A DNA stretch of 32,000 nucleotides. Origin: Pseudodesulfovibrio piezophilus C1TLV30 (lineage in GTDB: Bacteria; Desulfobacterota; Desulfovibrionia; Desulfovibrionales; Desulfovibrionaceae). Shown here in pieces: positions 5,923 to 30,920 of this stretch. Each line of letters opens with the position of its first letter. Within the stretch, counting starts at the first letter, position 1. The position numbers were made by a program, and so were the translations under genes. The DNA lies in assembly GCF_000341895.1 (NCBI RefSeq), contig NC_020409.1, forward strand, positions 2,850,001 to 2,882,000, read 5' to 3'. The notes beneath the pieces are model-generated. The model saw only the letters and a program-made list of their open reading frames with translations, was not told the DNA's origin and did not search any database.

Positions 5923-5998
5923 GGGCGCGTAGCTCAGCTGGGAGAGCATCGGCCTTACAAGCCGAGGGTCACAGGTTCGAGCCCTGTCGCGCCTACCA
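5923..5998 (+). tRNA. tRNA-Val (anticodon TAC)
   Basis: Hand-folded cloverleaf. Acceptor GGGCGCG/CGCGCCT (G1-U72), D stem GCTC/GAGC, anticodon stem TCGGC/GCCGA with loop CTTACAA, T stem ACAGG/CCTGT with TTCGAGC loop, discriminator A, encoded CCA. Confidence 0.95.
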
Positions 5999-6041
5999 TA
6001 TTTGAAATAGAGCGTTTTAAAACGCTGTATTATACCAGTGC

Positions 6042-6118
<77 letters not shown>

Positions 6119-6127
6119 CTAAAGATC

Positions 6128-6165
6128 AAGGACATCAACTATTTAAGTTGGTGTCCTTTTTCTTT
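6128..6165 (+). terminator. Rho-independent terminator of the tRNA-Val/tRNA-Asp operon
   Basis: A 13-bp stem AAGGACATCAACT (6128-6140) / AGTTGGTGTCCTT (6146-6158, one G-U pair), loop ATTTA, then TTTCTTT. Confidence 0.8.
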
Positions 6166-6216
6166 GGATTATGTGTGGTCAAGGCGTGTGTAAAAAAATG
6201 TGTAAAAGGCACTTCA

Positions 6217-6256
6217 AAAGCCCCTGAAATTGAGTTTTCAGGGGCTTTCTTTTTTA
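6217..6256 (+). terminator. Second strong Rho-independent terminator
   Basis: Stem AAAGCCCCTGAAA (6217-6229) / TTTCAGGGGCTTT (6236-6248), loop TTGAGT, followed by CTTTTTTATTT. It lies inside the spurious N-terminal extension of ORF 6148..8052. Confidence 0.8.
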
Positions 6257-6480
6257 TTTCATCTATCATTTCAGGTGGATTCAGGCCTGTTTTCAAAACC
6301 TGTCAGGCACTATTTGCGGAAATCACCTTGTATTTGGCCGTCCCTGGCGTGCTTTTGACCGACATCGGACTGTATTTCACCGACACGCTGCGCGCATACC
6401 GCCATTTTCTTCAAAACCCCATGCTACGCTCTTCGCAAATACATGAAGGGCCGTCTGCTCAGTGGTCCGAAGGAGACTAT

Positions 6481-8052
6481 ATGAGCGTATATGAAGTGAA
6501 GTTGAAGCACGACCAGAGTGGTCGCATTGCGGAGAAAACAGAAACCGTCAAGGGCAAGTCCATCAAGTGGACCTACTCCTATGACAAAAAGGGCTGCCTG
6601 TTCGAGGCGCACCTGGACAACCGACTGGTCTGCCAGTGTCATTACGATAGGGACGGCAGGCGACAGCAGGATTACTTCCCCAGGACGCACGGAAGTCAGT
6701 TGCGGAACTACCACTACCGTATGGACAACCGACTGCAACAGGCCGGAAACAACGGCTACACCCATGACAAGCAGGGATTCAGGTCCATTTGGAATCATGA
6801 AGGCAAATACACGTTGTACAAGTATGCGCCGGATTACCGTCTGCTCAAAGTCGAGATACCGGACGACAAGGTCATATTCGAGTTTGCTCATGATGAAGAC
6901 GGCCAGCGTGAGTACAAGTATCGCAACGGCGAGGTTGTCGAGGCATACAAGTGGCTTGATTTCGTCCGGCTGGCTGGATTTCATGACGGCGAAGCTGGAT
7001 ATCGCTTCGCCTACGATGGTGATGAACGAACTCCCTATGCCATGCAGCGTGAGGACGGAGTCGTAGCCTACCTGTACTATGACCAGGTCGGCTCCCTGCG
7101 AGTGGTTGCCGACAAGTTAGGCAACGTGATAAAGGAGGTTCTGTATGATCCCTTCGGTGGCATCATCGAAGACTCCAATCCCGACTTGCGAATCCCCATC
7201 GGGTTTGCTGGTGGATTGCATGACCGAGACCTCGGCTTTGTCCGTTTCGGTTGGCGGGATTACGATACCTTTACCAGCCGTTGGACCGCTCCCGATCCCA
7301 TGGGGGATGCTGGTGGCGATGACGATTGGTATGGATACTGTCTTGATGATCCCGTAAACGGCAACGATCCACTTGGTCTGTTTTTGAATTGGTTGATTCA
7401 GCAAGGAACCAAGAAGGTACACAAGGTCATTAACCCCATGTCGCCTGAAAGGATCATCAAGGAAGAAGCAGATAAGGAAATCTCCCGCCTTGAAGAATAC
7501 GGAGATGACAATGCAACTGCTAAGCATCAGATTGAAAAGATGAAGCGGCTGAAAAAGAAAATGAACGAGGAAGGCCTGCCTTCAACATACGACTCCATTA
7601 AGAAGACTCTCAGGCTGAAACGTATATGGCCTACAACGAAGAGCCAATCAACGAGGACTACGGACGATGAAGAATGCACACCAGATCATAGGGGCAGGAA
7701 TTGTTTTCGGACTTGTATCACTGTGGTTTGGACTGACATCTGGAATCATTGCTGGCCTTGTTGTGTATTTGGGCCTGAGGGCTGCCACGAAGCAGGTCAA
7801 AACAGACTAGAAAAGGCCAACTGCCCATGTCGAGCAGTTGGCCGGAAAGGGTGCTCCCAACCATCTCGCTCCACCCCCGGACGATCGGATTTGCCGTGCG
7901 CGGCCATAAAAGATGAAAAAGGAGGAAAACGGATTCCGGTCCATCTGGTCGAACGGCGACATGTACCACCTGTACGAGTACGCGCCGGACTGCCGGCTGC
8001 TCAAAATGGAAGTGGAGAATCAAAATCGCGTCTTTACCTTTTGCCACGATGA
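6481..8052 (+). CDS. Short Rhs/YD-repeat core protein with a C-terminal variable (toxin-like) tip; the 3' end is uncertain and the credible coding part probably stops near 7670 after a frame change
   Basis: AAGGAG (6470-6475) lies 5 nt before ATG 6481 (MSVYEVKLKH...). YD repeats: YSYDKKG, HYDRDG, YTHDKQG, FAHDEDG, FAYDGDE, YYDQVGSLRVV. Core terminus: FGWRDYDTFTSRWTAPDP...WYGYCLDDPVNGNDPLGL (DPLGL = 7366..7380). The tip is FLNWLIQQGTKKVHKV...KMKRLKKKMNEEGLPSTYDSIKK. Beyond about 7600 the open frame becomes Cys/Arg/Trp-rich and runs through another conserved gene. Confidence 0.75.
   Translation: MSVYEVKLKHDQSGRIAEKTETVKGKSIKWTYSYDKKGCLFEAHLDNRLVCQCHYDRDGRRQQDYFPRTHGSQLRNYHYRMDNRLQQAGNNGYTHDKQGFRSIWNHEGKYTLYKYAPDYRLLKVEIPDDKVIFEFAHDEDGQREYKYRNGEVVEAYKWLDFVRLAGFHDGEAGYRFAYDGDERTPYAMQREDGVVAYLYYDQVGSLRVVADKLGNVIKEVLYDPFGGIIEDSNPDLRIPIGFAGGLHDRDLGFVRFGWRDYDTFTSRWTAPDPMGDAGGDDDWYGYCLDDPVNGNDPLGLFLNWLIQQGTKKVHKVINPMSPERIIKEEADKEISRLEEYGDDNATAKHQIEKMKRLKKKMNEEGLPSTYDSIKKTLRLKRIWPTTKSQSTRTTDDEECTPDHRGRNCFRTCITVVWTDIWNHCWPCCVFGPEGCHEAGQNRLEKANCPCRAVGRKGCSQPSRSTPGRSDLPCAAIKDEKGGKRIPVHLVERRHVPPVRVRAGLPAAQNGSGESKSRLYLLPR
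7667..7810 (+). CDS. 47-aa hydrophobic small protein, copy A (candidate immunity or accessory membrane protein)
   Basis: Hand-found; too short for the ORF track. Sequence: MKNAHQIIGAGIVFGLVSLWFGLTSGIIAGLVVYLGLRAATKQVKTD. A paralogue at 10011..10154 differs at 18 sense codons, 9 synonymous and 9 conservative aliphatic swaps. The ATG overlaps a TGA (ATGA, 7667-7670) that closes the alternative frame of the Rhs tip. Confidence 0.8.
   Translation: MKNAHQIIGAGIVFGLVSLWFGLTSGIIAGLVVYLGLRAATKQVKTD
7815..7843 (+). other. Stem-loop after small ORF copy A
   Basis: A 9-bp stem GGCCAACTG (7815-7823) / CAGTTGGCC (7835-7843) with an 11-nt loop. No U-run follows, so its role as a terminator is uncertain. 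Confidence 0.4.
7841..7929 (+). repeat. Cassette leader repeat, copy 1 (89 bp, includes the start codon and first codons of the downstream ORF)
   Basis: Aligns without gaps to 9545..9633, with 78 of 89 positions identical by hand count: GCCGGAAAGGGTGCTCCCAACCATCTCGCTCCACCCCCGGACGATCGGATTTGCCGTGCGCGGCCATAAAAGATGAAAAAGGAGGAAAA. Confidence 0.85.
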
Positions 8053-8620
8053 GCAGGGCCGGCGGGTCGCCAAGTATTTCAACGGCCAACTTGTCGAGGC
8101 CTATGGGTGGCTCGACTTCATCCGGCTCGGCGCGTTCCACGACGGGCGCATGAGATACGAGTTCGGCTACGCGGATAACGCACGCCTTCCCTCGGCCATG
8201 CGGCGCGAAGATGGGGCCGTCTTCCCCCTGCACTACGACCAGGTCGGTTCTCTGCGTGTGGTTGCCGACGCGGATGGCGACGTGATAAAGGAAATCCTGT
8301 ACGATCCCTTCGGCGGGACCATTGAGGACACCAACCCCGGTTTCCGCGTCCCCCTCGGCTTTGCGGGCGGTCTGCACGACTGGGATTTGGGCTTCGTCCG
8401 CTTCGGTTGGCGGGACTACGACACCTTCACCGGCCGGTGGACCGCGCCTGATCCCATCGGGGACAAGGGCGGCGATCCGGATTGGTATGGCTATTGCCTC
8501 GATGATCCGGTCAACGGGGTGGACCCGTTGGGGCTGGAAGGCGGATTTTGGGGAGGAATGAAAAAAAATCGGAGCTGGGTTCGGAGAATTGTGGGACAAG
8601 ACCCCTGCGGGTATAGGTGA
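7913..8620 (+). CDS. Second Rhs-core protein (last ~200 aa of the core only) with its own start codon; ends at an in-frame TGA
   Basis: MKKEEN then GFRSIWSNGDMYHLYEYAPDCRLLK...YDQVGSLRVVADADGDVIKEILYDPFGG...FGWRDYDTFTGRWTAPDP...WYGYCLDDPVNGVDPLGL (DPLGL = 8522..8536). It is collinear with residues from GFRSIW onward of the 6481 protein. Confidence 0.8.
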   Translation: MKKEENGFRSIWSNGDMYHLYEYAPDCRLLKMEVENQNRVFTFCHDEQGRRVAKYFNGQLVEAYGWLDFIRLGAFHDGRMRYEFGYADNARLPSAMRREDGAVFPLHYDQVGSLRVVADADGDVIKEILYDPFGGTIEDTNPGFRVPLGFAGGLHDWDLGFVRFGWRDYDTFTGRWTAPDPIGDKGGDPDWYGYCLDDPVNGVDPLGLEGGFWGGMKKNRSWVRRIVGQDPCGYR

Positions 8621-8956
8621 GGCGTTACCAAGGGGACGAAGGGTGCTGGAGAAGCACTGAGCAAGACGGCGGAGGCCTTTGCAACCAACAAGGATTTGCA
8701 AAAATATACGGCGATATCCTTGGTGGCAGGTGCGCTGCCCATTGTTGCAGCCGTCGGCACGGCAGCAACACCAGCCATAGCCGGTGCTGCCATGCAGCAC
8801 CCGGATAAGCTGGCTGCCGGTTCAAAGGCCATTGTAGATATAGCTTCTGGCTGGTTTGATCCGGGGCCGCCTCCGGCCTCGGTACCCGGTTATGCCGGGA
8901 GTGGTGCCAAATGGATGTACGACAAATATAAAGAAAAAAGTAGGGAGACTACATGA
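8621..8956 (+). pseudogene. In-frame continuation of the second Rhs tip beyond the TGA at 8618-8620 (Ala/Gly-rich hydrophobic toxin-like tip); either interrupted or recoded
   Basis: Same frame as 7913..8620. Hand translation after the TGA: GVTKGTKGAGEALSKTAEAFATNKDLQKYTAISLVAGALPIVAAVGTAATPAIAGAAMQHPDKLAAGSKAIVDIASGWFDPGPPPASVPGYAGSGAKWMYDKYKEKSRETT*. The ORF-track start at 8696 is TTG, and the first in-frame ATG lies well inside the hydrophobic segment (within AAMQHP). Confidence 0.5.
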
Positions 8957-9147
8957 AAATCAAGCCAGCAGAGATCGTCATGGGGATTATACTGGTCTCT
9001 ATGGGCGTGATGGGCATGGGCGAAAAGGAATTGTTTCATTACGATGTTTCTATTCCATACCCGGAAGTCTTCAGTGCCGCGTGCTTGGTTGCCGGGATTG
9101 TTTGGCTTGTTGTTCCTTGGTTTCTTACATCTCGGAAAAAGCAATAA
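8953..9147 (+). CDS. Small 2-TM membrane protein, candidate immunity protein for the preceding tip
   Basis: 64 aa: MKIKPAEIVMGIILVSMGVMGMG...AACLVAGIVWLVVPWFLTSRKKQ, with two hydrophobic helices. Its ATG overlaps the upstream stop (ATGA, 8953-8956). Confidence 0.65.
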   Translation: MKIKPAEIVMGIILVSMGVMGMGEKELFHYDVSIPYPEVFSAACLVAGIVWLVVPWFLTSRKKQ

Positions 9148-9213
9148 CAATTGCAAAGGCCTTTGACGGACTCGTTGTTGGGGCCTTTGACTTAGCTTAC
9201 TGGTTTATTTTGA

Positions 9214-9245
9214 AAGGGCTGCCTCGGCAGCCCTTGTCCGTTTTA
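9214..9245 (+). terminator. Candidate Rho-independent terminator after the immunity-like gene
   Basis: Stem AAGGGCTG (9214-9221) / CAGCCCTT (9228-9235), followed by GTCCGTTTTA. Confidence 0.5.
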
Positions 9246-9305
9246 TCCCTTGTCAGCATCGCCGAAATAAGGGCGGTTCCTGCAAATCGGTCGAATTTGG
9301 CCAAA

Positions 9306-9333
9306 CCGGACCGAAACATGGCTTTCGGTCCGG
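9306..9333. other. Perfect 11-bp stem-loop in the non-coding spacer
   Basis: CCGGACCGAAA (9306-9316) / TTTCGGTCCGG (9323-9333), loop CATGGC. Confidence 0.6.
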
Positions 9334-9363
9334 TTCCGGCAAACGTGTCAATTTCGTGGAACT

Positions 9364-9394
9364 GGTCGTTTTTGATCAAGAACGACCGTTTTTT
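9364..9394 (+). terminator. Candidate Rho-independent terminator inside the non-coding spacer
   Basis: Stem GGTCGTT (9364-9370) / AACGACC (9381-9387), followed by GTTTTTT (9388-9394). Confidence 0.55.
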
Positions 9395-9544
9395 CAATGT
9401 CCGATCCGGCGATCTGAAAGAGTTGTCAGCAAGCCCAAGAAAAGGATTCAAAGATTGTCATCAACTGTTCGGACGCCCCCGAGCTAATCGGTATCGCCAA
9501 AAACGGAAGTTGTTGGCGCGCAACGCGAGACAATCTTTCTCCTC

Positions 9545-9633
9545 GCCGGAAAGGGTACTCCTAACCATTTCGCCCCACCCCCGGACGATCAGATTTGTCG
9601 TGCGCGGCTAGAAAGAATGAAAAAGGATGAAAA
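9545..9633 (+). repeat. Cassette leader repeat, copy 2
   Basis: GCCGGAAAGGGTACTCCTAACCATTTCGCCCCACCCCCGGACGATCAGATTTGTCGTGCGCGGCTAGAAAGAATGAAAAAGGATGAAAA. 78/89 identical to 7841..7929. Contains ATG 9617. Confidence 0.85.
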
Positions 9634-9988
9634 AGAGAAGGTTGTACCAGGAAATCAGCAGAAAACGCAGGGCTCTCAAAAAAAGGGAAAAGGACTGTTG
9701 AGCTACCAATTCGTATCAGATGGGAAAGTGATTGCCGATGGGCTCACGCATCCTGTGACTCGTCGAGGATGGAGTGGAAGCGACGACTACTCGGTGCCAC
9801 TGATCATGGTCTTCGATCTGCCATTCCCCGGAGCATCAGACAGTCTGATGCTAGGTTTGGAAGTTGTTGAGCCATTTTCATTTATGGAGGAGTACAAGGG
9901 GCAAACGTCGATAGTAATCACACCAAATTATGAGCCAAAGGCTGGCAAATGTTATGACGAAGATCTGCGAATTAAGCAGTCAAAGTAG
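9617..9988 (+). CDS. Hypothetical 123-aa protein of the third cassette (Lys/Gln-rich N-terminus, then a compact domain); no recognisable family
   Basis: ORF track. It starts MKKDEK inside leader copy 2, paralleling MKKEEN of the 7913 ORF, then diverges completely. No TM segment and no YD repeats. Confidence 0.55.
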   Translation: MKKDEKEKVVPGNQQKTQGSQKKGKGLLSYQFVSDGKVIADGLTHPVTRRGWSGSDDYSVPLIMVFDLPFPGASDSLMLGLEVVEPFSFMEEYKGQTSIVITPNYEPKAGKCYDEDLRIKQSK

Positions 9989-10010
9989 ATAGTCTGTTAA
10001 GTTGCAGGCG

Positions 10011-10154
10011 ATGAAAAATGTACACCAGATCATAGGGGCAGGAGTTGTTTTCGGACTTGTATCGCTGTGGTTTGGGCTGACATCTGGAGTCGTTGTTGGC
10101 CTCGTTGCCTATCTAGGTCTGAGAGTTGCAACAAAGCAGATAAAAGCAGACTAA
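10011..10154 (+). CDS. 47-aa hydrophobic small protein, copy B
   Basis: Hand-found: MKNVHQIIGAGVVFGLVSLWFGLTSGVVVGLVAYLGLRVATKQIKAD. 38/47 aa identical to copy A (7667..7810). Half of the differing codons are synonymous. Confidence 0.8.
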   Translation: MKNVHQIIGAGVVFGLVSLWFGLTSGVVVGLVAYLGLRVATKQIKAD

Positions 10155-10158
10155 AAAA

Positions 10159-11441
10159 GGTTCATCCGGCTAAGGCATACTTCGCTTTGTGAATTTTCAT
10201 GATCCTGAGCTTGAAGCACTCGGTGTCCCGATAGCCATAGGCTTGCCGTTCTTCGATTGGGCCTGATGAGATGGGGGTATCGTAGTAAGCGAGAATGTCG
10301 AAATGGTATGCGGCAAGCGCCTTCGCCATACCCCGCAAAGGGCGTATCTCAGAGGCTTCGGCCCCGACGATCCAGTCATTGATGATCTTCTCTGCCGTCT
10401 CCTTGTCCGGCTGGGACCAGAGTTGACGCAAGTCCTCTTTCAGATAGTAGTCTGTCGCCAAAGGTTTGTTCAGCCGCAGCGCTTCATCCAAGCGTTCCTT
10501 TTCATCGCGGTTTTCATCCAGATTTTCCGGGTTTTTCAGAAGAATCCATCAAGTCCCTTTGACCGCCTTCCTTTCAAGTGGCGAGGTGAGTTCCCGGAAG
10601 AGCTGGCGACGTATCTGTGTAATCTTTTCATTCATCAGCTTGACCACATGAAACCGGTCAAACACGACAGCCGTGTTCGGTAGGTTCTCCATGACTGCGC
10701 TGATATAACCGGCGTTCATGTCCTTCGCTACAGCCGGAATTTTGGCTCTTGTCTTCTTGAGACGTTCCCGGAACGGGAGGAGTGTTTCACGGCTTTGACC
10801 TTCGCCAACAAAAACGACTGCGTCGTTTTCAAAGTCCATAACCAATGTTAAAGACTTTTGCCCCTTCCGGACACTGATTTTGTCGATGGCGATATACTTG
10901 AGCTCCCCCAGCTTGGGCTTTGAGAAGCGGTGAACCAGATATCGCTTGAAGATTGATTTGATGGTATCCCACCCAACACCGATCAGGTCAGCCACATCTT
11001 GTATTGTCATCATTTTTGCCAGGGCGAGAGCATATCACTCAAAAGCTTTCGTATACCAGTTCCTGGAGTCGGCGATCTGAATGTGATCAAGCGAATGATG
11101 CCGCAAGTGCGACATCCTACCGGTTAGACAGGAATAACCAGCCAGACAGGCTTGAAACCGATGGGCACAGTCTGAACCCATCGCTCAGCAAAGCCGTAGC
11201 GAATGATGTCTCTGGAATGGCAGCAAGGGCAACGAATCAAGTCGTCCTTGAGCTGTACTTTCAGGATAATGTTGCCTGCGATGAAATCCTGTCGAACATG
11301 GTCGTAGCCTCGCAGGCCGAACGCATGGCAGATGAAACTCGTGGACATGGCGATAACTCCCTCCGCTGGTCGGTGATGCTTCCAACGGTTGGAGGCCATG
11401 TCCTTTCATTTTGTCAAAAGTACGCTTGAACCGGATGTACC
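10159..11441 (-). mobile_element. Decayed ISL3-family insertion sequence
   Basis: Imperfect terminal inverted repeats: GGTTCATCCGGCTAAGGC (10159-10176) versus the reverse complement of 11424-11441, GGTACATCCGGTTCAAGC (14/18). AAAAGG is present on both flanks (10155-10160 / 11443-11448), so the exact ends are ambiguous by 2 nt. The interior carries a fragmented ISL3 transposase. Confidence 0.75.
10162..11399 (-). pseudogene. ISL3-family transposase, broken into at least three frames or segments
   Basis: The N-terminal zf-ISL3-like piece is 11124..11399 (...LIRCPCCHSRDIIRYGFAERWVQTVPIGFKPVWL). The DDE core is 10549..11013 (IAIDKISVRKGQKSLTLVMDFEND...AVAKDMNAGYISAV...VVFDRFHVVKLMNEKI). The C-terminal piece is 10162..10491 (...ISSGPIEERQAYGYRDTECFKLRIMKIHKAKYALAG). 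That last piece lacks the usual GxNNKIK segment. In-frame stops separate the pieces. Confidence 0.8.
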
Positions 11442-11938: not shown

Positions 11939-12478
11939 ATGTACGGGAAACCGATGCTATCAGAGTTATTCACATCAAAAACAAGAATAAAAGTGCTGCT
12001 TAAGCTTTTTTTGAACCCAGAAGTATCTTGTTATCTTAGGGGATTAGCTGCTGAGTTTTCTCAGTCTCCCAATGCGCTTAAGTGTGAATTGGATCGGTTG
12101 AGTGAAGCGGGGTATTTGGAACGAGAGAAAAAAGGGCGAAGCGTCTACTTCAAGGCAAATAAAGCTCATCCTTTCTTCCCGGAAATCAGCTCCATTGTTC
12201 GTAAGACTTGCGGTATAGATAAATTAGTTAATGAGGTTGTTTCTAGCTTAGGAGATGTTCATGCAGTTTATATTTTGGATGACTATGCTCAAGGAAATGA
12301 TTCTGGATTGATTGATGCTTTGATTGTCGGAAACATAGATAAAAGTCGTTTAGATGAGCTTCGTAGTATTGTGGAAAGTAAAGTGGGGAGAAAGGTGCGC
12401 ACCATGGATGTAAACCCAGAAGAATTTGAAGAGAGTCGGAGTGTGTTTTTGAGTAGGCCGAATTGGAAGGTTTTATAG
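11939..12478 (+). CDS. Winged-helix (ArsR-like) transcriptional regulator with a C-terminal nucleotidyltransferase-fold-like domain
   Basis: 179 aa. N-terminal part: TRIKVLLKLFLNPEVSCYLRGLAAEFSQSPNALKCELDRLSEAGYLEREKKGRSVYF (wHTH). C-terminal part: VHAVYILDDYAQGNDSGLIDALIVGNID, resembling a degenerate minimal NTase strand-loop-strand. Confidence 0.6.
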   Translation: MYGKPMLSELFTSKTRIKVLLKLFLNPEVSCYLRGLAAEFSQSPNALKCELDRLSEAGYLEREKKGRSVYFKANKAHPFFPEISSIVRKTCGIDKLVNEVVSSLGDVHAVYILDDYAQGNDSGLIDALIVGNIDKSRLDELRSIVESKVGRKVRTMDVNPEEFEESRSVFLSRPNWKVL

Positions 12479-14316
12479 CTGTGACCAGTCTTCAGGAAAA
12501 TGCGGTGGAGCAAAAAAACTTTCGGTTACTGTGGAATATTAAAAGGATTTTTTCTTTTTTACAGAGCAAAGATAGAAAACGTTTTTTTGTGTTGACGTTT
12601 GGCGGTGTTGGGGTTGCGATTGTAGATGCCATTTCAGTCGCTCTAGTAGCGCTAATGGTTACTGTTTTAAATGATCCATCGACGATAATGCAAAGCGAAA
12701 TTGGTGTTCGATTGTGCAGTATATTCCCAGTCTTTCTCTCCTTTGAGAACAGAGCAATCATCGTGGGCGTGGGAATGCTTGCTACATTTTTTATTATTAT
12801 CAAAAATAGTTGTCGCGCTTTATTCGAATATAGAGTTGTTCGATTTGCAGCTGGGATGGATAGGCTAATAGGTAAGCATCTTTTAGGGCGTTTTTTGAAT
12901 ATGCCATACGGTTGGCATATTGAACAGAATTCGTCTGATCTCTTACTTGCAATTAGCTGGCGGTCGCATTTTGGCTCAGTGATGCTTTTATCTTTGATAA
13001 ATTTATTTGTGGATTGCGCATTTATATTATTTGTTCTGGCCTCTCTTTTTGTTGTTGCGCCCGTAATTTCTTTTTTTGTCGTCTTTTTTGTGGGGGGAGG
13101 AGGCTGTTTTATATATCGAAAAACTCGTACAGTTCTTGATCAGGAGGTTGTATTGGGTCAAGAGTATAAAATGAAAATAAGCCAAATTTCACTGAAAATA
13201 ATACAAGGTGTCAAGGATGTCATAGTTTTTTCTAAAGAGAGAGAGTTTATTAACGAATATGATGCATCTGCACAGCGGCAAGAACGAATATTAGCACGTC
13301 AACGACTCTTTACAAATATACCTATGCAAGTCTTGGAAGCATTTGGTTTTACCATGCTTGTTTTTTCTATGTTTGCATTACTTTTTATTTTTCCAATGCC
13401 TAGAGGGAAGGTTATTGGTATTGTAGTGCTTCTCGCTGTAACAGCATGGAGAGTTCTTCCTGTAGCATCACGGTTATTGGTCTCCATCTCTTCTTTAAGA
13501 AGCTCTCTCCCTTATTTGTCTAAAATATTTGATTATTTAGAGATGCAAAAAGCTAACCCATTGCTTAATCCTGCATCTGGTACTTTACTGAATTGGAAGC
13601 AAGATATCGTTTTTGACAAGGTTGATTTCCGTTATAAAAAAGGGCTCCCTAAGGCGGTGCATTCTATTGATTTTCGGATACAAAAAGGGAGCGTCTTCGG
13701 TGTTGTGGGCCAGTCTGGAGCAGGGAAGAGTACTCTTATTGATCTTCTTGTGGGATTACTTACACCGGATTCCGGAGAAATCCTGTTAGATGGGAAAAGG
13801 ATTTCTGACCTTGATTTAGGCCGGTTGCGGAATCTGTTTGGGTATGTGTCTCAGCACCCCTACATAGTTGATGCATCTTTGGCGGAGAATGTTGCTTTTG
13901 GATTGAGTGGTCGAGCTATAGATATGGAGCGGGTCAAAACTTGCTGTCAGATGGCTGCCGTTGATTTTTTAGACGAACTTCCCGATGGTTTTAATACACG
14001 AATTGGTGAGCGGGGTGTGAGGCTTTCCGGTGGGCAGCGGCAGCGAATTTCCATCGCACGGGCTTTGTATCATAAACCGGAGCTACTGATCTTTGATGAG
14101 GCTACAAGCGCCCTTGATAAAGGGACAGAGTTAGCTATTCGTGAAACGATTTATTCACTGAAAGGGAATGTTACATTACTATTAGTAGCACATCGTATGA
14201 GTACTCTTGAAGGGTGCGATTCTATTCTTTGGTTGGATAAAGGGAAAGTTCATAAAATCGGAACACCTGAGGAAATATTGCCATTGCTTGATCGTTTATC
14301 AATAAAAAAACAGTAA
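12463..14316 (+). CDS. Fused TMD-NBD ABC exporter (MsbA/PglK-like type I exporter)
   Basis: Six hydrophobic helices followed by Walker A GQSGAGKST, signature LSGGQRQR and Walker B LLIFDEATSALD. There is no in-frame ATG near the 5' end. The start is TTG 12463 or, perhaps more likely, GTG 12481 just after the upstream stop. Confidence 0.85.
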   Translation: MEGFIAVTSLQENAVEQKNFRLLWNIKRIFSFLQSKDRKRFFVLTFGGVGVAIVDAISVALVALMVTVLNDPSTIMQSEIGVRLCSIFPVFLSFENRAIIVGVGMLATFFIIIKNSCRALFEYRVVRFAAGMDRLIGKHLLGRFLNMPYGWHIEQNSSDLLLAISWRSHFGSVMLLSLINLFVDCAFILFVLASLFVVAPVISFFVVFFVGGGGCFIYRKTRTVLDQEVVLGQEYKMKISQISLKIIQGVKDVIVFSKEREFINEYDASAQRQERILARQRLFTNIPMQVLEAFGFTMLVFSMFALLFIFPMPRGKVIGIVVLLAVTAWRVLPVASRLLVSISSLRSSLPYLSKIFDYLEMQKANPLLNPASGTLLNWKQDIVFDKVDFRYKKGLPKAVHSIDFRIQKGSVFGVVGQSGAGKSTLIDLLVGLLTPDSGEILLDGKRISDLDLGRLRNLFGYVSQHPYIVDASLAENVAFGLSGRAIDMERVKTCCQMAAVDFLDELPDGFNTRIGERGVRLSGGQRQRISIARALYHKPELLIFDEATSALDKGTELAIRETIYSLKGNVTLLLVAHRMSTLEGCDSILWLDKGKVHKIGTPEEILPLLDRLSIKKQ

Positions 14317-14439
14317 TTGTATTTACATAAATATGGTGGCTAATCGAATTTACCCACATTTTTTGGGATATATTACTCACATGAGCGAGTTACGGTTTTT
14401 TGAAGAGAATCTATGATGGTTTATGGAGAAAATTAAAGA

Positions 14440-15186
14440 ATGGGATCTTTTTTTATCGATAGAAAATACCGTTTGCCACGTAAATGGTCTAATAAAGAGT
14501 TGAGGAAGATTGCTCCTTTGATCAAAGGAGAGGTCGTCAATGTTAGTGCGTGGAAAGACTCTGATAAAGAAGGTGGTTTTTATTGCGATTATTTCCGCAA
14601 TGCTTCTCACTATAGCATCACTAATTACAAGGCTGAAGCGCGAGGATTTCAGGGGAAGGAAGGCGAGATCTTTTTGGATTTGGAACAAGTACTCTCGGGA
14701 GAATTGGTACAGAGGTTTGACGTTGCTTTTAATCATACAACTCTGGAGCACACGTTCGACGTCTTTACCGCATTTTCAAATTTATGTTCACTTTCCAAGG
14801 ATATGGTCATAGTTGTGGTGCCTCATCTACAACAGATGCACAGTACATTCGGAGATTTTTGGCGATTTACACCAGAAAGTGTGGAAAAATTGTTTTTGAT
14901 GAATGGGCTGAAATTAGTTTACCTAAGCTTTAATGAGCACTGTGACTCTTCTGTGTATATTTTTGCAGTGGGGTCACGGTTTCCTGAACGATGGCGAAAG
15001 ACCATAGGCAATGATTGTAGTTATATGTCCAAATATCAACCTCATGATGGAATGGAAGCCTTTATTGGTTGTCAGGCGGTGACTAATCTTGGGTACAGAG
15101 CAGGTCTTGTGCTGAAGTCCTTCCAATCTATTTTAACAAGGTTGTATAAAAAACTTGGTACATTGATGGGAAAGAGTTTCATATAA
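14440..15186 (+). CDS. Probable class I SAM-dependent methyltransferase (divergent motif I)
   Basis: 248 aa. FDVAFNHTTLEHTFDVFTAFSNLCSLSKDMVIVVVP...FWRFTPESVEKLFLMNGL matches the post-motif-II organisation of Methyltransf_11-like enzymes. The N-terminal glycine-rich motif is not canonical. Confidence 0.5.
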   Translation: MGSFFIDRKYRLPRKWSNKELRKIAPLIKGEVVNVSAWKDSDKEGGFYCDYFRNASHYSITNYKAEARGFQGKEGEIFLDLEQVLSGELVQRFDVAFNHTTLEHTFDVFTAFSNLCSLSKDMVIVVVPHLQQMHSTFGDFWRFTPESVEKLFLMNGLKLVYLSFNEHCDSSVYIFAVGSRFPERWRKTIGNDCSYMSKYQPHDGMEAFIGCQAVTNLGYRAGLVLKSFQSILTRLYKKLGTLMGKSFI

Positions 15187-15210
15187 AAAGATGTCTCTAC
15201 GGGGTAGAAA

Positions 15211-16266
15211 TTGTTGTCTGGAGAGGAGTTAAATGTGGCGAATATTTCAGGGGATATAATCAAAGTCCGTGGGTGGACCTTTGGTAAAGAAGATCATTGT
15301 TGGCTAGCCCAAAGCTGGCCTGATGAGTATTACGAGACCCCCTATTGTTGCGGTTGTGGGGCTTCCATGACTCCTTGTTTTCAGATTTCCAATTCCGCTG
15401 GAGCCTTAGGATGTGTCACTAGTATTTGCCAAAGGTGTGGTTTTGTAAAAAAAACCAGTCAGTTGGGTGGTCAGTATATATCGCAGCACTTTGCTAAAAG
15501 ATGGCTGATCAGAAGAGATGATGTTCTGAGAGAGTCGCTATATCCCTATACCAAATTAGCACCTTTAGTTAAAGCTGGAGGCCGAGTCTTGGATCTTGGT
15601 TGTGGTATCGGGGATCGCCTGCTGCCATTTCATAACAATGGTTTTGACGTATATGGCGTTGACCCTTCAGAGCATCGTACCCAAATAGCGACAACTCGAA
15701 TGCGCAATATCCTGGTAGGGGATGGTGAAACCTACCTTGCCAACAATCATGAAAAATTTGATCTTATATATCTTTTTAATGTGCTTCAATTCTTGGTTAA
15801 TCCCTTTGCGGTTATCCAAGCGGCTCTTGAGCACGTGGTTGATGGTGGCTTTCTGTTCTTTTCAGTGAGCAATTTTCAGGAGCATAATATGGTCCAGTTG
15901 GCTCATCTGGGAGTCATCGTTTCTTATCTTAGTCCTTATTCTGTCGGGCGTTTTTTACAAACTTCGAATTTAGATAGTTGTGTTGTTGAATACAGTCATT
16001 CTCCGTTTGAATGCATTATTCGCAAAGGGAAAGGGGCGCAAGGCAATCAAAATATGCATCAAGCATCTCCTTGTCAGTTGACTAATATTGTGGATTCAGC
16101 TCGAACAAGTTCTGTGTATTCTCGATTTCCTTACATGGTTCGGAGAAGTGTTGAGTTAAATTCACCTGGAAGGACAATTGAATTTCATCGGCGCTTTATT
16201 CGAAAAATAAAGGCTCCCCTAACATTCATGTATGACACAGAATATATTCCTGTGCTTCTGAAGTAG
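15211..16266 (+). CDS. Class I SAM-dependent methyltransferase with an N-terminal Cys-rich (zinc-ribbon-like) segment
   Basis: Motif I RVLDLGCGIGDRL, then FDVYGVDPS and FDLIYLFNVLQFLVNP. N-terminal cysteines at YCCGCG...CQRCG. The ORF-track start is TTG. GTG 15235 has a better SD (GGAGAGGAG). Confidence 0.75.
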   Translation: MLSGEELNVANISGDIIKVRGWTFGKEDHCWLAQSWPDEYYETPYCCGCGASMTPCFQISNSAGALGCVTSICQRCGFVKKTSQLGGQYISQHFAKRWLIRRDDVLRESLYPYTKLAPLVKAGGRVLDLGCGIGDRLLPFHNNGFDVYGVDPSEHRTQIATTRMRNILVGDGETYLANNHEKFDLIYLFNVLQFLVNPFAVIQAALEHVVDGGFLFFSVSNFQEHNMVQLAHLGVIVSYLSPYSVGRFLQTSNLDSCVVEYSHSPFECIIRKGKGAQGNQNMHQASPCQLTNIVDSARTSSVYSRFPYMVRRSVELNSPGRTIEFHRRFIRKIKAPLTFMYDTEYIPVLLK

Positions 16267-16275
16267 GTGTTGGTT

Positions 16276-17589
16276 ATGACTTTGGGAGCCGTGTTGCAAA
16301 AAGTTATTGGTTCTTATTTGACCTGTAAACTGTATGATCTAACATATGATTTTCGTATGCGTTTTCGCCATTTCTGTATGAATTGGAGGCAGGGAGGGAG
16401 TTCCCTCAAGACTGACCTTCCTTTTAAGCGTATAGGTTCTTCAAATTATCATGTTTTTTTTGGGTATTACGATTTTTCACCACTCAACTTTGTAAATGAT
16501 AAATGCCTAGCTCTTAGAGTTGCAGGTAAAAACACCCCTCCCACCGCAAATGAGATCGCTGAAGTAGGATACTACAATCTTGGTGTTGGAGTGTCTGACT
16601 TTGTAAAAATAGGGGAGACGCGCTCCTGGTGCTGGCAACAAGGCTGCCGGCTACAATGGTTTCCAGGCTTGGGTGGGAATGAAGATGATCATGTGCTGTA
16701 TAATACTCGGCAGAGGGGAGTCGGAAGTGTCATACAGAATATCAAAACATTTGAGATTGTGAAGAAATTCTCTCGCCCTGTGTATGCTTGCGATTCTAGA
16801 AATCACTATGCCTATAGTCTCGATTTTGGAAGATTGCACCGCCTTCGGCCCGGATATGGATACGCCAGCGAGTTGGAGTTGAGTCGTGATGAGAAGTGCC
16901 CTCATGATAACGGTATCTGGCGAATTGATCTGCGAACAGGGGAAGAAGTATTACTTTTTTCCATCAAGGAACTTGCCAGCATATCTCCTTTACCCGGTAT
17001 GGAGGGTGCAGACCACTACATTAATCATATTTTGGTGAATCCTTCAGGCACACGATTTTTATTCATACATCTTTGGACAAGTCATGGTGAAAAATTTGGG
17101 CGTATGTTTACTGCGGATTGTAATGGTGAAAATATACATTTAGTTATGAATTCAGGGCATGCGTCACATTATTGTTGGGATGGTGATGATGTTTTGTTTT
17201 GCTACAGTGACTTGCCACAAAGTGGAATGCATGTGCATCGTTTTCGCGACAAATCCGATAGTGTTGATGCCGTCTTGGTAGATCTTGTTAAAGAAGATTG
17301 TCATATGTCAATTTCCCCTACCCATGATCTTATGCTGATAGATTCCTATCCAACTCCTGAGAGAGTGCAATCTGTTGCAATTTGTTCCATGAAACCTGAA
17401 AGGCGAGTGGATATTGCTGGTTTTTATACGCCGAGTCATTTTACGGGAGAAGTTCGCTGTGACTTGCACCCCCGGTGGAGTCGAAATGGCTTGAAGGTGT
17501 CTGTGGATGCCGTTTATAAGGGGAAAAGATCGATATATATATTTGATGTTACTGGCTTCATTCGTGAACAAAAATTTTACGGGAAGTAA
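16276..17589 (+). CDS. Hypothetical protein, probable beta-propeller (TolB / oligogalacturonide-lyase-like C-terminal signature); function unknown
   Basis: ORF 16267..17589 trimmed to ATG 16276 (AGGTG 6 nt upstream). It has repeated beta-strand-rich blocks and a terminal CDLHPRWSRNG motif, reminiscent of the HPxFSxDG blades of TolB/Ogl-type propellers. Confidence 0.45.
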   Translation: MTLGAVLQKVIGSYLTCKLYDLTYDFRMRFRHFCMNWRQGGSSLKTDLPFKRIGSSNYHVFFGYYDFSPLNFVNDKCLALRVAGKNTPPTANEIAEVGYYNLGVGVSDFVKIGETRSWCWQQGCRLQWFPGLGGNEDDHVLYNTRQRGVGSVIQNIKTFEIVKKFSRPVYACDSRNHYAYSLDFGRLHRLRPGYGYASELELSRDEKCPHDNGIWRIDLRTGEEVLLFSIKELASISPLPGMEGADHYINHILVNPSGTRFLFIHLWTSHGEKFGRMFTADCNGENIHLVMNSGHASHYCWDGDDVLFCYSDLPQSGMHVHRFRDKSDSVDAVLVDLVKEDCHMSISPTHDLMLIDSYPTPERVQSVAICSMKPERRVDIAGFYTPSHFTGEVRCDLHPRWSRNGLKVSVDAVYKGKRSIYIFDVTGFIREQKFYGK

Positions 17590-17934
17590 TGATCGTAATT
17601 TGAGGATTTAACCAATTCATTTAGTTCGGGTGAGAATGGTTTTAGCCTGTGACTCTTAAATTGCATACACTACTTTGTGTGTACTTCTGATGAGATCATG
17701 TAACATTCATTTGATTTGGGAGTTTCTGTGAAAATATTCAGGATCACAGTGTTCGGCTAAAAATGAAAAGTTGCAATCAAAGACTTTTACATCACAATCA
17801 AAGCTTTATCGCTTCTTTCTGGTTGTGACTTTTATGTTGATAACGGTATGTCAGTCTTATTTCTCTTTATATTTTGGTCTGTTAGATTGGAGTAAGTCTT
17901 TTGGGCCGTTAAAACAACGGGTTTTGGAGGGATT

Positions 17935-18987
17935 TTGCGTACATTCTCTTTAGATGGGAAAAGTATTGGTAATGGGAAGAAAACTTTTATTATTGCCGAA
18001 ATTGGGCTGGCTCATGATGGTTCGCTGGGAATGGCTCATAGTTATGTTGACGCTGTTGCTGACGCAGGAGCAGATGCTATTAAATTCCAGACGCATATAG
18101 CAGAAGCTGAGAGCACAAGTAATGAGCAGTTTCGAATTAACTTTTCCTATGAAGACGCTACTCGGTTTGACTATTGGAAACGCACCGGGTTTACCTTTGA
18201 GCAATGGGATGGGCTGTTTGCGCATGCTCAAGAGAGAGGTTTGACTTTTTTAAGCACTCCTTTTTCCACTACTGCAGTTCACTGGCTTGACAAAATAGGT
18301 GTAAGAGGTTGGAAAGTCGGGTCTGGCGATCTGGGTAATTGGGAGTTGGCTGAAGCCTTGGCTCATACAGGTAAACCCGTTATTTTTAGTACAGGTATGT
18401 CTTCATGGGATGAGATTGAGGATGTCATTGCATTTTGTACTGAGCGGAAAATGGACATGGCTTTGCTGCAATGTACTTCGAAGTACCCTGCTCCTTTGAA
18501 AGATGTTGGGTTAAATGTCATTGACCGCCTTCAGAATGATTTTGGTATAATCTCTGGATTGTCGGACCATTCCGGGACCGTTTTCCCAAGTTTGGCAGTT
18601 ATGGCTCGTGGTGTTGCTATTGTTGAATTTCACGTAGTTTTTGATAAGCGAATGTTTGGGCTAGACACGAAAGCGTCACTGACGTTGGATGAACTGGCCT
18701 TTGTTGTGGAAGCGCGGAATGCTTTTCACAGCATGGGGAGCGAAGTAGATAAAAATACAACAGCTCAAGAAATGGGGAAGATGCGAAAATTATTTGGTAG
18801 AAGCTTGGCACTACGTCATGATCTAGCAAAAGGGGCTATCCTTACAGAAGAGGATCTTTGTCTAAAAAAACCTGGATCAGGTATTCCTCATAAAGAGTTG
18901 GTTAACCTTATAGGAAAACCCCTCACGCGAGCGGTTCCCGCCTCTCGTTTGTTGTGCATTGAAGATATTGGAAATGAATATGAATAA
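17935..18987 (+). CDS. neuB: Nonulosonic (sialic) acid synthase, NeuB family, with C-terminal SAF domain
   Basis: FIIAEIGLAHDGS...DAIKFQTH...LSTPFS...WKVGSGDL...VIFSTGMSSWDEIE...LLQCTSKYPAP...GLSDHSG...VEFHV is collinear with NeuB/LegI/PseI. The C-terminal RSLALRHDLAKGAILTEEDLCLKKPGSGI is the SAF domain. TTG start 17935 is preceded by GGAGGG. Confidence 0.9.
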   Translation: MRTFSLDGKSIGNGKKTFIIAEIGLAHDGSLGMAHSYVDAVADAGADAIKFQTHIAEAESTSNEQFRINFSYEDATRFDYWKRTGFTFEQWDGLFAHAQERGLTFLSTPFSTTAVHWLDKIGVRGWKVGSGDLGNWELAEALAHTGKPVIFSTGMSSWDEIEDVIAFCTERKMDMALLQCTSKYPAPLKDVGLNVIDRLQNDFGIISGLSDHSGTVFPSLAVMARGVAIVEFHVVFDKRMFGLDTKASLTLDELAFVVEARNAFHSMGSEVDKNTTAQEMGKMRKLFGRSLALRHDLAKGAILTEEDLCLKKPGSGIPHKELVNLIGKPLTRAVPASRLLCIEDIGNEYE

Positions 18988-21951: not shown

Positions 21952-21965
21952 TCTTCAGGAGTCTT

Positions 21966-22700: not shown

Positions 22701-22909
22701 TTATATTAAGTAAAAGTCCCTCATTTTGATGTTTTCAATCTAAGGGAACTTTATCAAAGGCAGCTTATGTCAAAATTCGTAAATATCTTTCATTGTATAT
22801 GAAAGAGGCTTTTCTAGATTGGATTCATAAGATTGTTTAAGAAAAGTACAATCTATGTGTTTTATGACTCACATATTTTGCAAAGAGCCTTGCTTGTTGG
22901 GAGTGCCAG

Positions 22910-23635: not shown

Positions 23636-23739
23636 TCATTCTTTTAGATGGCATGTAGGGGGATACCCTATAGTTGATGAATGACTATAGAAGAATCCTC
23701 ATCTCTAGTTATGCAAATCTTGGTCTATTTGGAGATAAT

Positions 23740-25278: not shown

Positions 25279-25284
25279 AGTAAA

Positions 25285-26445: not shown

Positions 26446-26703
26446 ATAGACTCCCCATTCGTCTCAGCAAGTATTTGTTTTGATAGGCTTCTAAGTGTCC
26501 AAGAATTAGGAAGTTTAAGGAACCTCTCTCTCCTGGATTGAACAGGTGTGTTTTAATTCTGAGTGACTGTTTGGTCTCATTTTGTATATTTTGCTAATGT
26601 AGTCTAAATACTCTCATTCATACCTTGAGTAGTGGTATGGTTTACATGTACGAAATTTGCCGTCTCCCCTTGGGAAATATTGATATGTTTATGACCGAAT
26701 ATT

Positions 26704-30911: not shown

Positions 30912-30920
30912 ATTGGTTTC

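What the first reader, a model, noticed from the sequence alone, without database searches (positions are those of the whole stretch)
7667..10154. Unannotated, duplicated 47-aa hydrophobic protein gene flanking two different cassettes
Seen: two ORFs below the ORF-track size cutoff, at 7667..7810 and 10011..10154. They encode MKNAHQIIGAGIVFGLVSLWFGLTSGIIAGLVVYLGLRAATKQVKTD and MKNVHQIIGAGVVFGLVSLWFGLTSGVVVGLVAYLGLRVATKQIKAD. Of 18 differing sense codons, 9 are synonymous and 9 are I/V/A/T swaps. There are no indels. Flanking DNA is unrelated apart from AAAAGG after the stop. Copy A starts in an ATGA overlap with a stop codon in the alternative frame of the upstream tip.

Inference: this is a genuine small membrane protein, with one long or two short TM helices. 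It is conserved although the upstream partners (Rhs tip 1 and the 123-aa protein) are unrelated. That is unusual for a toxin-specific immunity protein. It hints at a shared accessory role, for example membrane insertion or export, holin-like release, or immunity to a shared activity.
Basis: partly seen in the sequence, partly recalled or inferred. Interest (0 to 1): 0.72.

Follow-up and report, generated by a model that had tools for sequence, protein, structure and literature searches.

The report
Rhs toxin immunity gene plus orphan copy
The duplicated 47-residue membrane protein is most likely the immunity protein for one particular Rhs toxin tip, and the second copy is a stray "orphan" immunity gene beside a truncated, unrelated immunity gene; this arrangement is common in bacterial toxin loci.

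Summary
Two 47-codon ORFs (7667..7810 and 10011..10154) are 85% identical in DNA, have no indels and lie in unrelated flanks. They are clearly coding: dN/dS is 0.09-0.27 across seven pairs of homologues, and there is no sign of RNA structure.

The window is Pseudodesulfovibrio piezophilus C1TLV30. Copy B is already annotated (CCH49904.1). Copy A is hidden because a 1-nt deletion makes the upstream Rhs ORF read through it.

The "shared accessory factor" reading is not supported.
- In four independent lineages the small ORF sits directly after the same 96-aa Rhs tip family ("tip1"), overlapping it by ATGA.
- Other tips in the same arrays each have their own, different small membrane ORF.
- The 123-aa "partner" of copy B is not a toxin. 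It is a 5'-truncated member of a ~177-aa family that follows a different Rhs tip elsewhere, so it is itself an immunity-gene remnant.

Copy A is therefore the cognate immunity gene of tip1. Copy B is an orphan immunity gene in a decaying array that ends at an ISL3 remnant.

Both tip1 and the 47-aa family are absent from Pfam, NCBIfam and PHROGs. The one unusual feature is a very hydrophilic toxin paired with a tiny membrane immunity protein. I rate this a new member of a known kind, of modest interest.

The parts
6478..7670 (+). Short Rhs/YD-repeat protein ('mini-Rhs', about 397 aa in its ancestral frame) ending in the tip1 toxin domain. In this window a 1-nt deletion (CC instead of CCC at about 7628-7630) shifts the frame, so the literal ORF (6148..8052) reads through copy A.
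   Evidence: Pfam TEN_YD-shell, E = 3.4e-16, profile positions 597-866 of 909. The start is conserved with L011, L015 and L017 homologues. The indel was located against L001 and is shared by L003.
7381..7670 (+). tip1: a 96-aa C-terminal domain after the DPLGL motif and the presumed toxin. It is very hydrophilic (GRAVY -1.16; 20 K/R, 18 D/E). Its last 12 codons (YNEEPINEDYGR*) are out of frame here.
   Evidence: Homologous tips occur in L001, L002/L017, L011-13 and L014 at 67-82% identity, all ending ...WPYN...ED[YF]GR*. No Pfam, NCBIfam or PDB match.
7667..7810 (+). Copy A of the 47-aa membrane protein. I interpret it as the cognate immunity gene of tip1, coupled to the ancestral tip1 stop by ATGA.
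   Evidence: Its exact sequence is not in the protein collection, so it is unannotated.
7815..7843 (.). 13-bp GC-rich hairpin immediately after copy A (GGCCAACTGC...GCAGTTGGCC). It is a possible transcript end or stabiliser. The T-run lies only on the minus strand.
7841..7929 (+). 89-nt 'leader' repeat, copy 1. It supplies the ATGAAAAAGGA... start of the orphan Rhs fragment.
   Evidence: Repeat family D4, 88% identical to 9545-9633. Also present after copy A in L001.
7913..8956 (+). Orphan Rhs C-terminal fragment with a different, Gly/Ala-rich hydrophobic tip (tip2). It is disrupted by a local double frameshift and an in-frame stop at 8618-8620.
   Evidence: the last compares it with L017 homologues.
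8953..9147 (+). 64-aa membrane protein, overlapping tip2 by ATGA. Presumed immunity protein for tip2 (CCH49902.1).
   Evidence: It is 73% identical to the 65-aa ORF that follows the homologous tip in L017.
9545..9633 (+). 89-nt 'leader' repeat, copy 2. It supplies the start codon and first residues of the 123-aa ORF.
9617..9988 (+). 123-aa ORF (CCH49903.1). It is a 5'-truncated orphan member of a ~177-aa membrane-anchored family that is the downstream (immunity-position) partner of another Rhs tip family (tip-X, FRFGKRPL...NNCQDYADRLR). It lacks the N-terminal anchor.
10011..10154 (+). Copy B of the 47-aa membrane protein (CCH49904.1). It is an orphan immunity gene with no tip1 sequence upstream.
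10162..11399 (-). Broken ISL3-family transposase (three ORF pieces). Its stop codon lies 8 nt from the stop of copy B, which marks the 3' edge of the A/B homology.
   Evidence: Pfam DDE_Tnp_ISL3 and HTH_Tnp_ISL3. L003 gene calls add Zn_ribbon_ISL3.

Best explanation
The 47-aa protein is the toxin-specific immunity protein of one Rhs C-terminal toxin family, tip1, a 96-aa, highly charged, probably all-helical domain.

Copy A is the in-place cognate gene. Ancestrally it was translationally coupled to the end of tip1 through an ATGA overlap.

Copy B is an orphan immunity gene. It is a diverged homologue (dS about 0.4, so not a recent in-genome duplication) whose own toxin has been lost. It now sits behind another orphan, 5'-truncated immunity gene (the 123-aa ORF) and in front of a dead ISL3 element, at the tail of a decaying Rhs array.

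Inferred mechanism: the protein inserts into the inner membrane through its 31-residue apolar core, as one long helix or a tight hairpin. The lysine/arginine-rich C-terminal tail faces the cytoplasm. The protein neutralises tip1 at the membrane in one of two ways. Its conserved juxtamembrane motif (Y34-x-G-L-x-x-A-x-K42) may capture the toxin, or the protein may shield a membrane target or entry route.

What is shown: the gene is real and under purifying selection; it pairs with tip1; the partner of copy B is an immunity-type gene.

What is inferred: immunity itself, the topology, and the mode of neutralisation.
For: (1) The pairing is specific. The small ORF follows a tip1 homologue with a 4-nt ATGA overlap in the window/L001/L003 lineage, in L002/L017, in L011-13 and in L014.

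(2) In L017 five toxin tips lie in a row (one on the main gene, four in orphan modules), and each is followed by a different small membrane ORF of 118, 65, 44, 59 or 77 aa. Only tip1 has the 44-aa homologue.

(3) Toxin and small protein both diverge between lineages, and the small protein faster: tips are 67-82% identical and small proteins 38-68%.

(4) Purifying selection acts on the small ORF. dN/dS is 0.09-0.27 and synonymous sites are saturated in distant pairs.

(5) The 123-aa ORF belongs to a family placed directly after tip-X in L007, L008-10 and L011. That family also occurs as an orphan in immunity arrays in L004-6, where a 20-aa tip-X remnant precedes it.

(6) A second orphan case exists. 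The L015/L016 homologue lies among other membrane ORFs downstream of an Rhs with a different tip.

(7) Both toxin tips in this locus are disrupted while the small ORFs are intact. The tip1 frameshift is shared by the independent assembly L003, L001 carries a different frameshift, and tip2 is broken.

(8) There is published precedent. Immunity genes lie immediately downstream of Rhs C-terminal toxin domains, and orphan immunity genes, including homologues of the in-use one, are common just downstream (PMC10539506). Tsi5 is a two-TM inner-membrane immunity protein to the Rhs toxin Tse5 (PMC9637101).
Against: - No experiment shows toxicity of tip1 or protection by the 47-aa protein.
- tip1 has no hydrophobic segment, so the usual logic of a membrane immunity protein for a membrane-inserting toxin does not obviously apply. 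A 47-aa protein has only about 6 N-terminal and 10 C-terminal residues outside the apolar core (residues 7-37) to contact a soluble toxin.
- The A/B homology starts exactly at the ORF (2 nt upstream). That requires a recombination breakpoint right at the gene start, and no tip1 remnant is detectable before copy B.
- Only five distinct tip1/small-ORF pairs are known, so the co-variation is anecdotal.
Confidence: 0.8

Rival explanations
1. This is the first reader's idea: a shared accessory factor, not specific to any toxin. The small membrane protein would help membrane insertion, export or holin-like release of whatever cassette product lies upstream.
For: Two copies sit behind unrelated upstream ORFs in this window. 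In L015 the homologue follows a polytopic membrane ORF rather than tip1.
Against: - The upstream ORF of copy B is a truncated immunity-type gene, not a cargo toxin.
- In every case with a toxin directly upstream, that toxin is tip1.
- Other tips in the same loci lack the 47-aa protein and have their own small ORFs.
- No endolysin or lysis-cassette context was seen.
- There is no significant holin profile match: the best is E = 0.23 for 1 of 7 members.
- tblastn finds no match in phage or plasmid records.
Confidence: 0.05
2. The small protein provides immunity, but indirectly. It does not bind tip1. Instead it occupies or modifies an inner-membrane protein or lipid that tip1 needs as a target or as an entry route into the cytoplasm.
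For: tip1 is strongly hydrophilic, and the small protein is almost entirely buried in the membrane. The invariant residues F14, L16 and W20 lie within the apolar core (residues 7-37) and Y34, G36 and L37 at its C-terminal edge.
Against: Nothing was tested. The conserved C-terminal juxtamembrane motif (Y-x-G-L-x-x-A-x-K) could equally be a direct toxin-binding site. Immunity proteins whose mechanism is known mostly bind their toxin (general knowledge, and PMC10539506).
Confidence: 0.2
3. The small hydrophobic peptide is itself a toxic or membrane-active product, like a type I toxin or a bacteriocin. The charged tip1 would then be its partner or antidote.
For: Its size and hydrophobicity resemble small membrane toxins (my own recollection, not a test). 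It also carries small-xxx-small motifs.
Against: - Intact orphan copies persist where both toxin tips are decaying.
- It occupies the canonical immunity position downstream of a DPxGL-delimited Rhs tip.
- It sits among other immunity-type genes in L015.
- No RNA family match overlaps either copy.
Confidence: 0.03
4. The repeat is not a protein-coding gene. It would be a conserved structured RNA or a recombination site that happens to be open in one frame.
For: The -1 frame is also open across both copies. The shared unit has sharp edges.
Against: - The substitutions are codon-phased, with dN/dS 0.09-0.27 down to 52% nucleotide identity.
- The alignment fold has an energy of -7.2 kcal/mol with an unfavourable covariation term of +1.59.
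- The single-sequence fold has z = +0.40.
- There is no Rfam match.
Confidence: 0.01

Closest known systems
Rhs effector / RhsI immunity pairs with downstream orphan immunity genes (for example the Serratia marcescens Rhs1 locus, PMC10539506; orphan CDI/Rhs modules, PMC3150448)
   Same: [quoted passage not shown]
- Further orphan Rhs fragments and stand-alone immunity genes follow downstream.
- One orphan is a diverged homologue of the in-use immunity gene.
   Different: - The Rhs proteins here are only about 390-400 aa (the last third of a YD shell), and no trafficking domain or T6SS genes are visible in the window.
- The immunity protein is a 44-55-aa membrane protein, not a soluble protein.
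- Both the toxin and the immunity family are undescribed.
Tse5 (Rhs) / Tsi5 of Pseudomonas aeruginosa (PMC9637101)
   Same: An Rhs C-terminal toxin is neutralised by a small integral inner-membrane immunity protein encoded next to it.
   Different: - Tse5-CT inserts into membranes and forms ion-selective pores (PMC9637101), whereas tip1 is strongly hydrophilic with no apolar segment. The neighbouring tip2 / 64-aa pair resembles Tse5/Tsi5 more closely.
- Sequence relatedness to Tsi5 was not tested.
- Tsi5 has two predicted TM regions. The topology of the 47-aa protein is unresolved: AF2 predicts one helix, and distant homologues have D22 in the middle of the apolar stretch.
Phage holins and other small lysis or membrane peptides
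   Same: Small size, one or two TM segments, and a charged C-terminal tail.
   Different: There is no lysis-cassette context and no significant holin profile match. Phage records give no tblastn match. The gene is consistently linked to an Rhs tip.

Membership tests
Cognate immunity protein of an Rhs/polymorphic toxin (functional class) | Encoded immediately 3' of the toxin C-terminal domain on the same strand, typically overlapping or coupled | tested here: met
   ATGA overlap with the (ancestral) tip1 stop in the window, L001, L002, L017, L011-13 and L014.
Cognate immunity protein of an Rhs/polymorphic toxin (functional class) | One immunity family pairs with one toxin family; other toxins have other immunity genes | tested here: met
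   Whenever a toxin lies directly upstream, it is tip1. In L017 the other four tips have different small ORFs. tip-X pairs with the 177-aa family.
Cognate immunity protein of an Rhs/polymorphic toxin (functional class) | Toxin and immunity protein diverge together between lineages | tested here: inconclusive
   Tips are 67-82% identical and small proteins 38-68%, with roughly the same ranking, but only five distinct pairs exist.
Cognate immunity protein of an Rhs/polymorphic toxin (functional class) | Neutralises the cognate toxin and not others | not testable with these tools
   Needs co-expression or competition assays.
Orphan immunity gene (copy B) | Homologue of an immunity gene with no cognate toxin sequence upstream, located downstream of an effector-immunity pair | tested here: met
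   There is no tip1 similarity before 10009. Copy B lies 2.2 kb downstream of the tip1/copy A pair, within the array.
Orphan immunity gene (copy B) | ORF kept intact under purifying selection | tested here: met
   dN/dS for A versus B is 0.19, with no indels and no stop; the random-substitution test gives P = 0.004.
Tsi5-type immunity (partner of the pore-forming Rhs toxin Tse5) | Partner toxin is hydrophobic and inserts into the membrane to form pores | tested here: not met
   tip1 has GRAVY -1.16, and its best 19-residue window scores -0.25. Properties of Tse5-CT are from PMC9637101.
Tsi5-type immunity (partner of the pore-forming Rhs toxin Tse5) | Two transmembrane segments, located in the inner membrane | tested here: inconclusive
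   The apolar stretch is 31 residues with a K/R-rich C-terminal flank. AF2 gives a single helix 2-46 at pLDDT 88. D22 in P0024 and P0025 suggests a hairpin turn.
Tsi5-type immunity (partner of the pore-forming Rhs toxin Tse5) | Sequence homology to Tsi5 | not tested
No curated family matched the 47-aa protein.
Phage holin | Lysis-cassette context and a match to holin profiles | tested here: not met
   The best holin PHROG match is E = 0.23 for 1 of 7 members. Phage records give no tblastn match. All eight genomic contexts are Rhs arrays.
Structured RNA element | Compensatory changes that maintain base pairs; stable fold | tested here: not met
   The covariation term is +1.59 (unfavourable) and many pairs are broken. 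The fold z-score is 0.40. There is no Rfam match.

The most novel reading that the evidence does not exclude
tip1 and the 47-aa protein could be a new kind of toxin-immunity pair. A small, fully hydrophilic helical Rhs tip would be neutralised by a microprotein that is almost entirely buried in the membrane. That would imply either a toxin acting on the cytoplasmic face of the membrane or on a membrane protein, or immunity by blocking a membrane entry route or target rather than by sequestering the toxin. The pair is carried on unusually short (~390-aa) Rhs proteins so far seen only in Pseudodesulfovibrio piezophilus, one Desulfovibrionaceae MAG and unclassified metagenome contigs; their means of delivery is unknown.
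Probability: 0.2. Interest if true: 0.55.

Novelty: new member of a known kind. Interest (0 to 1): 0.3.

Why it matters
The main value is corrective. An apparent "shared accessory factor" turns out to be ordinary Rhs-locus architecture: a cognate immunity gene plus an orphan one.

The analysis also shows why copy A escaped annotation. A frameshift makes the toxin ORF read through it.

It defines two undescribed families: a 96-aa hydrophilic Rhs tip and a 44-55-aa membrane immunity microprotein. It also assigns the 123-aa hypothetical protein to a second immunity family.

If the pairing of a hydrophilic toxin with a membrane microprotein is confirmed, it would be a compact system for studying how a minimal membrane protein confers toxin immunity. 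It would also show that toxin loci hide functional microproteins below the usual gene-calling cutoffs.

Tried and rejected
- Word-indexed homologue search with tip1 returned only the L002 protein, so tip1 homologues had to be collected from the contexts of the small ORF.
- Genome and metagenome DNA-pattern scans with the small-protein alignment each returned one locus. The family is rare, or the pattern was too narrow.
- Look-up of P0006 failed.
- P0022 and P0026 from the exhaustive search are repetitive, unrelated proteins and were discarded.
The permitted two-sequence alignment gave pLDDT 52, too poor for a fold search, so none was run.
- AF2 of the 47-aa protein gave one continuous helix. 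This does not settle one versus two TM segments.
- Pfam, NCBIfam, PHROGs and PDB sequence searches gave only sub-threshold noise for the 47-aa protein and tip1.
- I looked for tip-X or tip1 remnants upstream of the 123-aa ORF and of copy B and found none.
- I considered programmed frameshifting at the tip1/copy A junction and rejected it. The site (TGGCCTAC) is not slippery, and L001 has the unshifted sequence.
- The structured-RNA alternative was rejected.

Full report
**1. The observation**

They differ at 22 of 144 nt. Nine sense codons differ synonymously and nine non-synonymously, all of the latter being I/V/A/T exchanges. The stop codons are TAG and TAA, and there are no indels. Differences fall 6/4/12 on codon positions 1/2/3.

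The flanks are 21-37% identical, which is random. The repeat finder bounds the shared unit at 7665-7816 and 10009-10160, 152 nt at 86% identity. The ATGA overlap at the start of copy A with a stop in another frame is real.

**2. It is a protein-coding gene**

dN/dS is 0.19 for A versus B. It is 0.09-0.27 for six further pairs that reach down to 52% nucleotide identity, with synonymous sites saturated. Random placement of the same number of substitutions reproduced 9 or fewer amino-acid changes with no stop in 0.4% of trials.

The structured-RNA alternative fails. The consensus fold of six homologues has -7.2 kcal/mol with an unfavourable covariation term. The single sequence folds no better than shuffles, z = 0.40. 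There is no Rfam match in the region other than two tRNAs.

**3. Where the window comes from, and annotation**

Copy B is identical to CCH49904.1, 'exported protein of unknown function', of Pseudodesulfovibrio piezophilus C1TLV30. The 123-aa and 64-aa neighbours are CCH49903.1 and CCH49902.1. The exact sequence of copy A is not in the 15-billion-protein collection. So only copy A is unannotated.

The reason is visible in the sequence. The Rhs ORF upstream (literal ORF 6148..8052) reads straight through copy A in another frame. Compared with a 99.5%-identical metagenome contig (L001), the window has CC instead of CCC at about 7628-7630. In L001 and in the more distant L002, the tip ends ...IWPYNEEPINEDYGR* with its TGA overlapping the ATG of the small ORF.

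The deletion is also present in an independent 45-kb metagenome contig, L003, which is 99.8% identical with no gaps over 11.4 kb. It is therefore probably a real mutation rather than a read error. L001 has a different 1-nt deletion further upstream, at window position 7273.

**4. Homologues and their neighbourhoods**

The family is small. The word-indexed search gave three proteins. An exhaustive profile search of 1.84 billion cluster representatives gave three more (P0023, P0024, P0025) plus two spurious repetitive hits. Scans of genome and metagenome contigs each added one locus.

Every context is an Rhs array.

| Locus | What precedes the small ORF |
|---|---|
| L002 and L017 | orphan Rhs fragment carrying a tip1 homologue, ATGA-coupled to a 44-aa homologue |
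| L011, L012, L013 | Rhs with a tip1 homologue, ATGA-coupled to a 55-aa homologue |
| L014 | tip1 homologue, ATGA-coupled to a 47-aa homologue |
| L015/L016 (a Desulfovibrionaceae MAG) | no tip1; the 44-aa homologue sits among other membrane ORFs downstream of an Rhs with a glycine-rich tip, so this is another orphan |

In L017 five different tips are each followed by a different small membrane ORF, of 118, 65, 44, 59 and 77 aa. So the 47-aa family is specific to tip1 and is not a general accessory. Across lineages the tips are 67-82% identical and the small proteins 38-68%.

**5. The 'unrelated upstream partner' of copy B**

The 123-aa ORF has 17 homologues. Fifteen of them are 176-193 aa, and those whose sequences were read (P0006, P0008, P0013, P0014, P0020) carry an N-terminal hydrophobic anchor. 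They align to residues 10-123 of the window protein.

These full-length proteins sit directly downstream of one particular Rhs tip family, tip-X (FRFGKRPL...HEQGFYEDG...NNCQDYADRLR), in L007, L008-L010 and L011. In L004-L006 they occur in immunity arrays behind a 20-aa remnant of tip-X.

The 123-aa ORF is therefore a 5'-truncated orphan immunity-type gene. Its first nine codons come from an 89-nt leader repeat that is also found in front of the orphan Rhs fragment at 7841-7929. No tip-X or anchor sequence remains in the window. This removes the premise that the 47-aa protein serves two unrelated toxins.

**6. Structure of the locus**

The elements lie in this order:

| Coordinates | Element |
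|---|---|
| 5923-6118 | tRNA-Val and tRNA-Asp |
| 6478-7670 | short Rhs with tip1, frameshifted |
| 7667-7810 | copy A |
| 7815-7843 | hairpin |
| 7841-7929 | leader repeat, copy 1 |
| 7913-8956 | orphan Rhs fragment with hydrophobic tip2, broken by a local double frameshift and a stop |
| 8953-9147 | 64-aa membrane ORF, ATGA-coupled |
| 9545-9633 | leader repeat, copy 2 |
| 9617-9988 | truncated 123-aa immunity gene |
| 10011-10154 | copy B |
| from 10162, minus strand | broken ISL3 transposase, its stop 8 nt from the stop of copy B |

The IS explains the sharp 3' edge of the A/B homology. The 5' edge requires a recombination junction at the start of the gene. Both toxin tips here are damaged, while the three small membrane ORFs are intact.

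**7. Properties of the protein and of tip1**

The small protein has a 31-residue apolar core (residues 7-37). One K lies at the N-terminus and three K/R in the C-terminal flank. It has several small-xxx-small motifs. Nine columns are invariant across seven sequences: M1, F14, L16, W20, Y34, G36, L37, A40 and K42.

AF2 predicts a single helix from residue 2 to 46 with pLDDT 88. The two most distant homologues have Asp at position 22, which hints at a hairpin turn. The topology is therefore unresolved.

tip1 is 96 aa, with GRAVY -1.16, 20 K/R and 18 D/E, and no apolar segment. It is predicted to be all-helical, but at pLDDT 52, so no fold search was made.

Neither protein matches Pfam, NCBIfam, PHROGs or PDB sequences above noise. 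tblastn of the small protein finds nothing in phage or plasmid records.

**8. Interpretation**

The best-supported reading has two parts:
- Copy A is the cognate immunity gene of tip1.
- Copy B is an orphan immunity gene, probably matching a variant tip1 carried by other strains. It has been kept while the toxins decay.

This is the standard architecture of Rhs loci. The immunity gene lies immediately downstream of the C-terminal toxin domain. Orphan immunity genes, sometimes homologues of the in-use one, are common just downstream, and one has been shown to protect against a non-self toxin (PMC10539506). A small integral inner-membrane immunity protein for an Rhs toxin has a precedent in Tse5/Tsi5 (PMC9637101).

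How a protein that is almost entirely buried in the membrane neutralises a hydrophilic toxin is not known. I infer one of two routes:
- capture at the cytoplasmic face through the conserved Y-x-G-L-x-x-A-x-K juxtamembrane motif; or
- protection of a membrane target or entry route.

**9. Verdict**

The inference of a genuine small membrane protein is confirmed. The inference of a shared accessory, export or holin role is not supported. This is a new, uncharacterised toxin-immunity family pair within a well-known kind of system, and it is of modest interest.

Noticed in passing
window 6478-7670; L011 337-1530; L015 3762-4964; L017 1940-3106: The 'main' Rhs proteins of these loci are only about 390-400 aa. 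They match only positions ~597-866 of the 909-position TEN_YD-shell profile, yet they start at the same conserved N-terminus (M..Y..KLKHD..GRI.EK.ETV.G) in four diverged lineages. No PAAR, signal or other trafficking domain and no T6SS genes are visible nearby. How such a partial shell would be delivered, or whether it acts inside the cell, is unclear.
   Followed up: partly
window 7273, 7628-7630, 8560-8625: Both toxin tips in the locus are disrupted. tip1 has a 1-nt deletion shared with L003. The near-identical L001 carries a different 1-nt deletion. tip2 has a local double frameshift plus an in-frame stop. All small membrane ORFs stay intact. This looks like toxin loss with immunity retained.
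   Followed up: yes
window 7841-7929 and 9545-9633; L001 3178-3310: An 89-nt repeat (88% identical) precedes both orphan modules and provides their ATGAAAAAGGA... start codon and first residues. In L001 the same element leads into yet another, unrelated 100-aa ORF. It may be a portable promoter/RBS/start or a recombination joint for orphan cassettes. The simple sigma-70 scan found no promoter in it.
   Followed up: partly
window 9617-9988; L007 5586-6534; L011 1823-2887: A second undescribed toxin-immunity family pair. It consists of Rhs tip-X (FRFGKRPL...HEQGFYEDG...NNCQDYADRLR, about 120 aa) and a ~177-aa protein with an N-terminal membrane anchor. The window's 123-aa 'hypothetical protein' CCH49903.1 is a truncated member.
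   Followed up: yes
window 10162-11399 (minus strand): An ISL3-family transposase is broken into three ORF pieces (109, 154 and 91 aa). Its stop codon is 8 nt from the stop of copy B, so either the IS end overlaps the tail of the small gene or the IS is truncated there.
   Followed up: partly
window 5923-6118: tRNA-Val(TAC) and tRNA-Asp(GTC) lie immediately upstream of the Rhs array, a typical insertion site for islands. Two hairpin-plus-T-run sites follow at 6128-6158 and 6217-6248.
   Followed up: no
window 7667-7810 and 10011-10154, -1 frame: The frame used by the read-through Rhs ORF is also free of stops across copy B (VAGDEKCTPDHRGRSCF...). This is probably a by-product of the Gly/Val/Leu-rich codon content, not a second gene.
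   Followed up: no
window 12463-31000: Judged from the ORF translations alone, the downstream half of the window looks like a surface-polysaccharide or nonulosonic-acid biosynthesis cluster: an ABC exporter, methyltransferases, NeuB-, NeuC- and cytidylyltransferase-like ORFs, glycosyltransferases and an asparagine synthase-like ORF. No profile searches were run on them.
   Followed up: no
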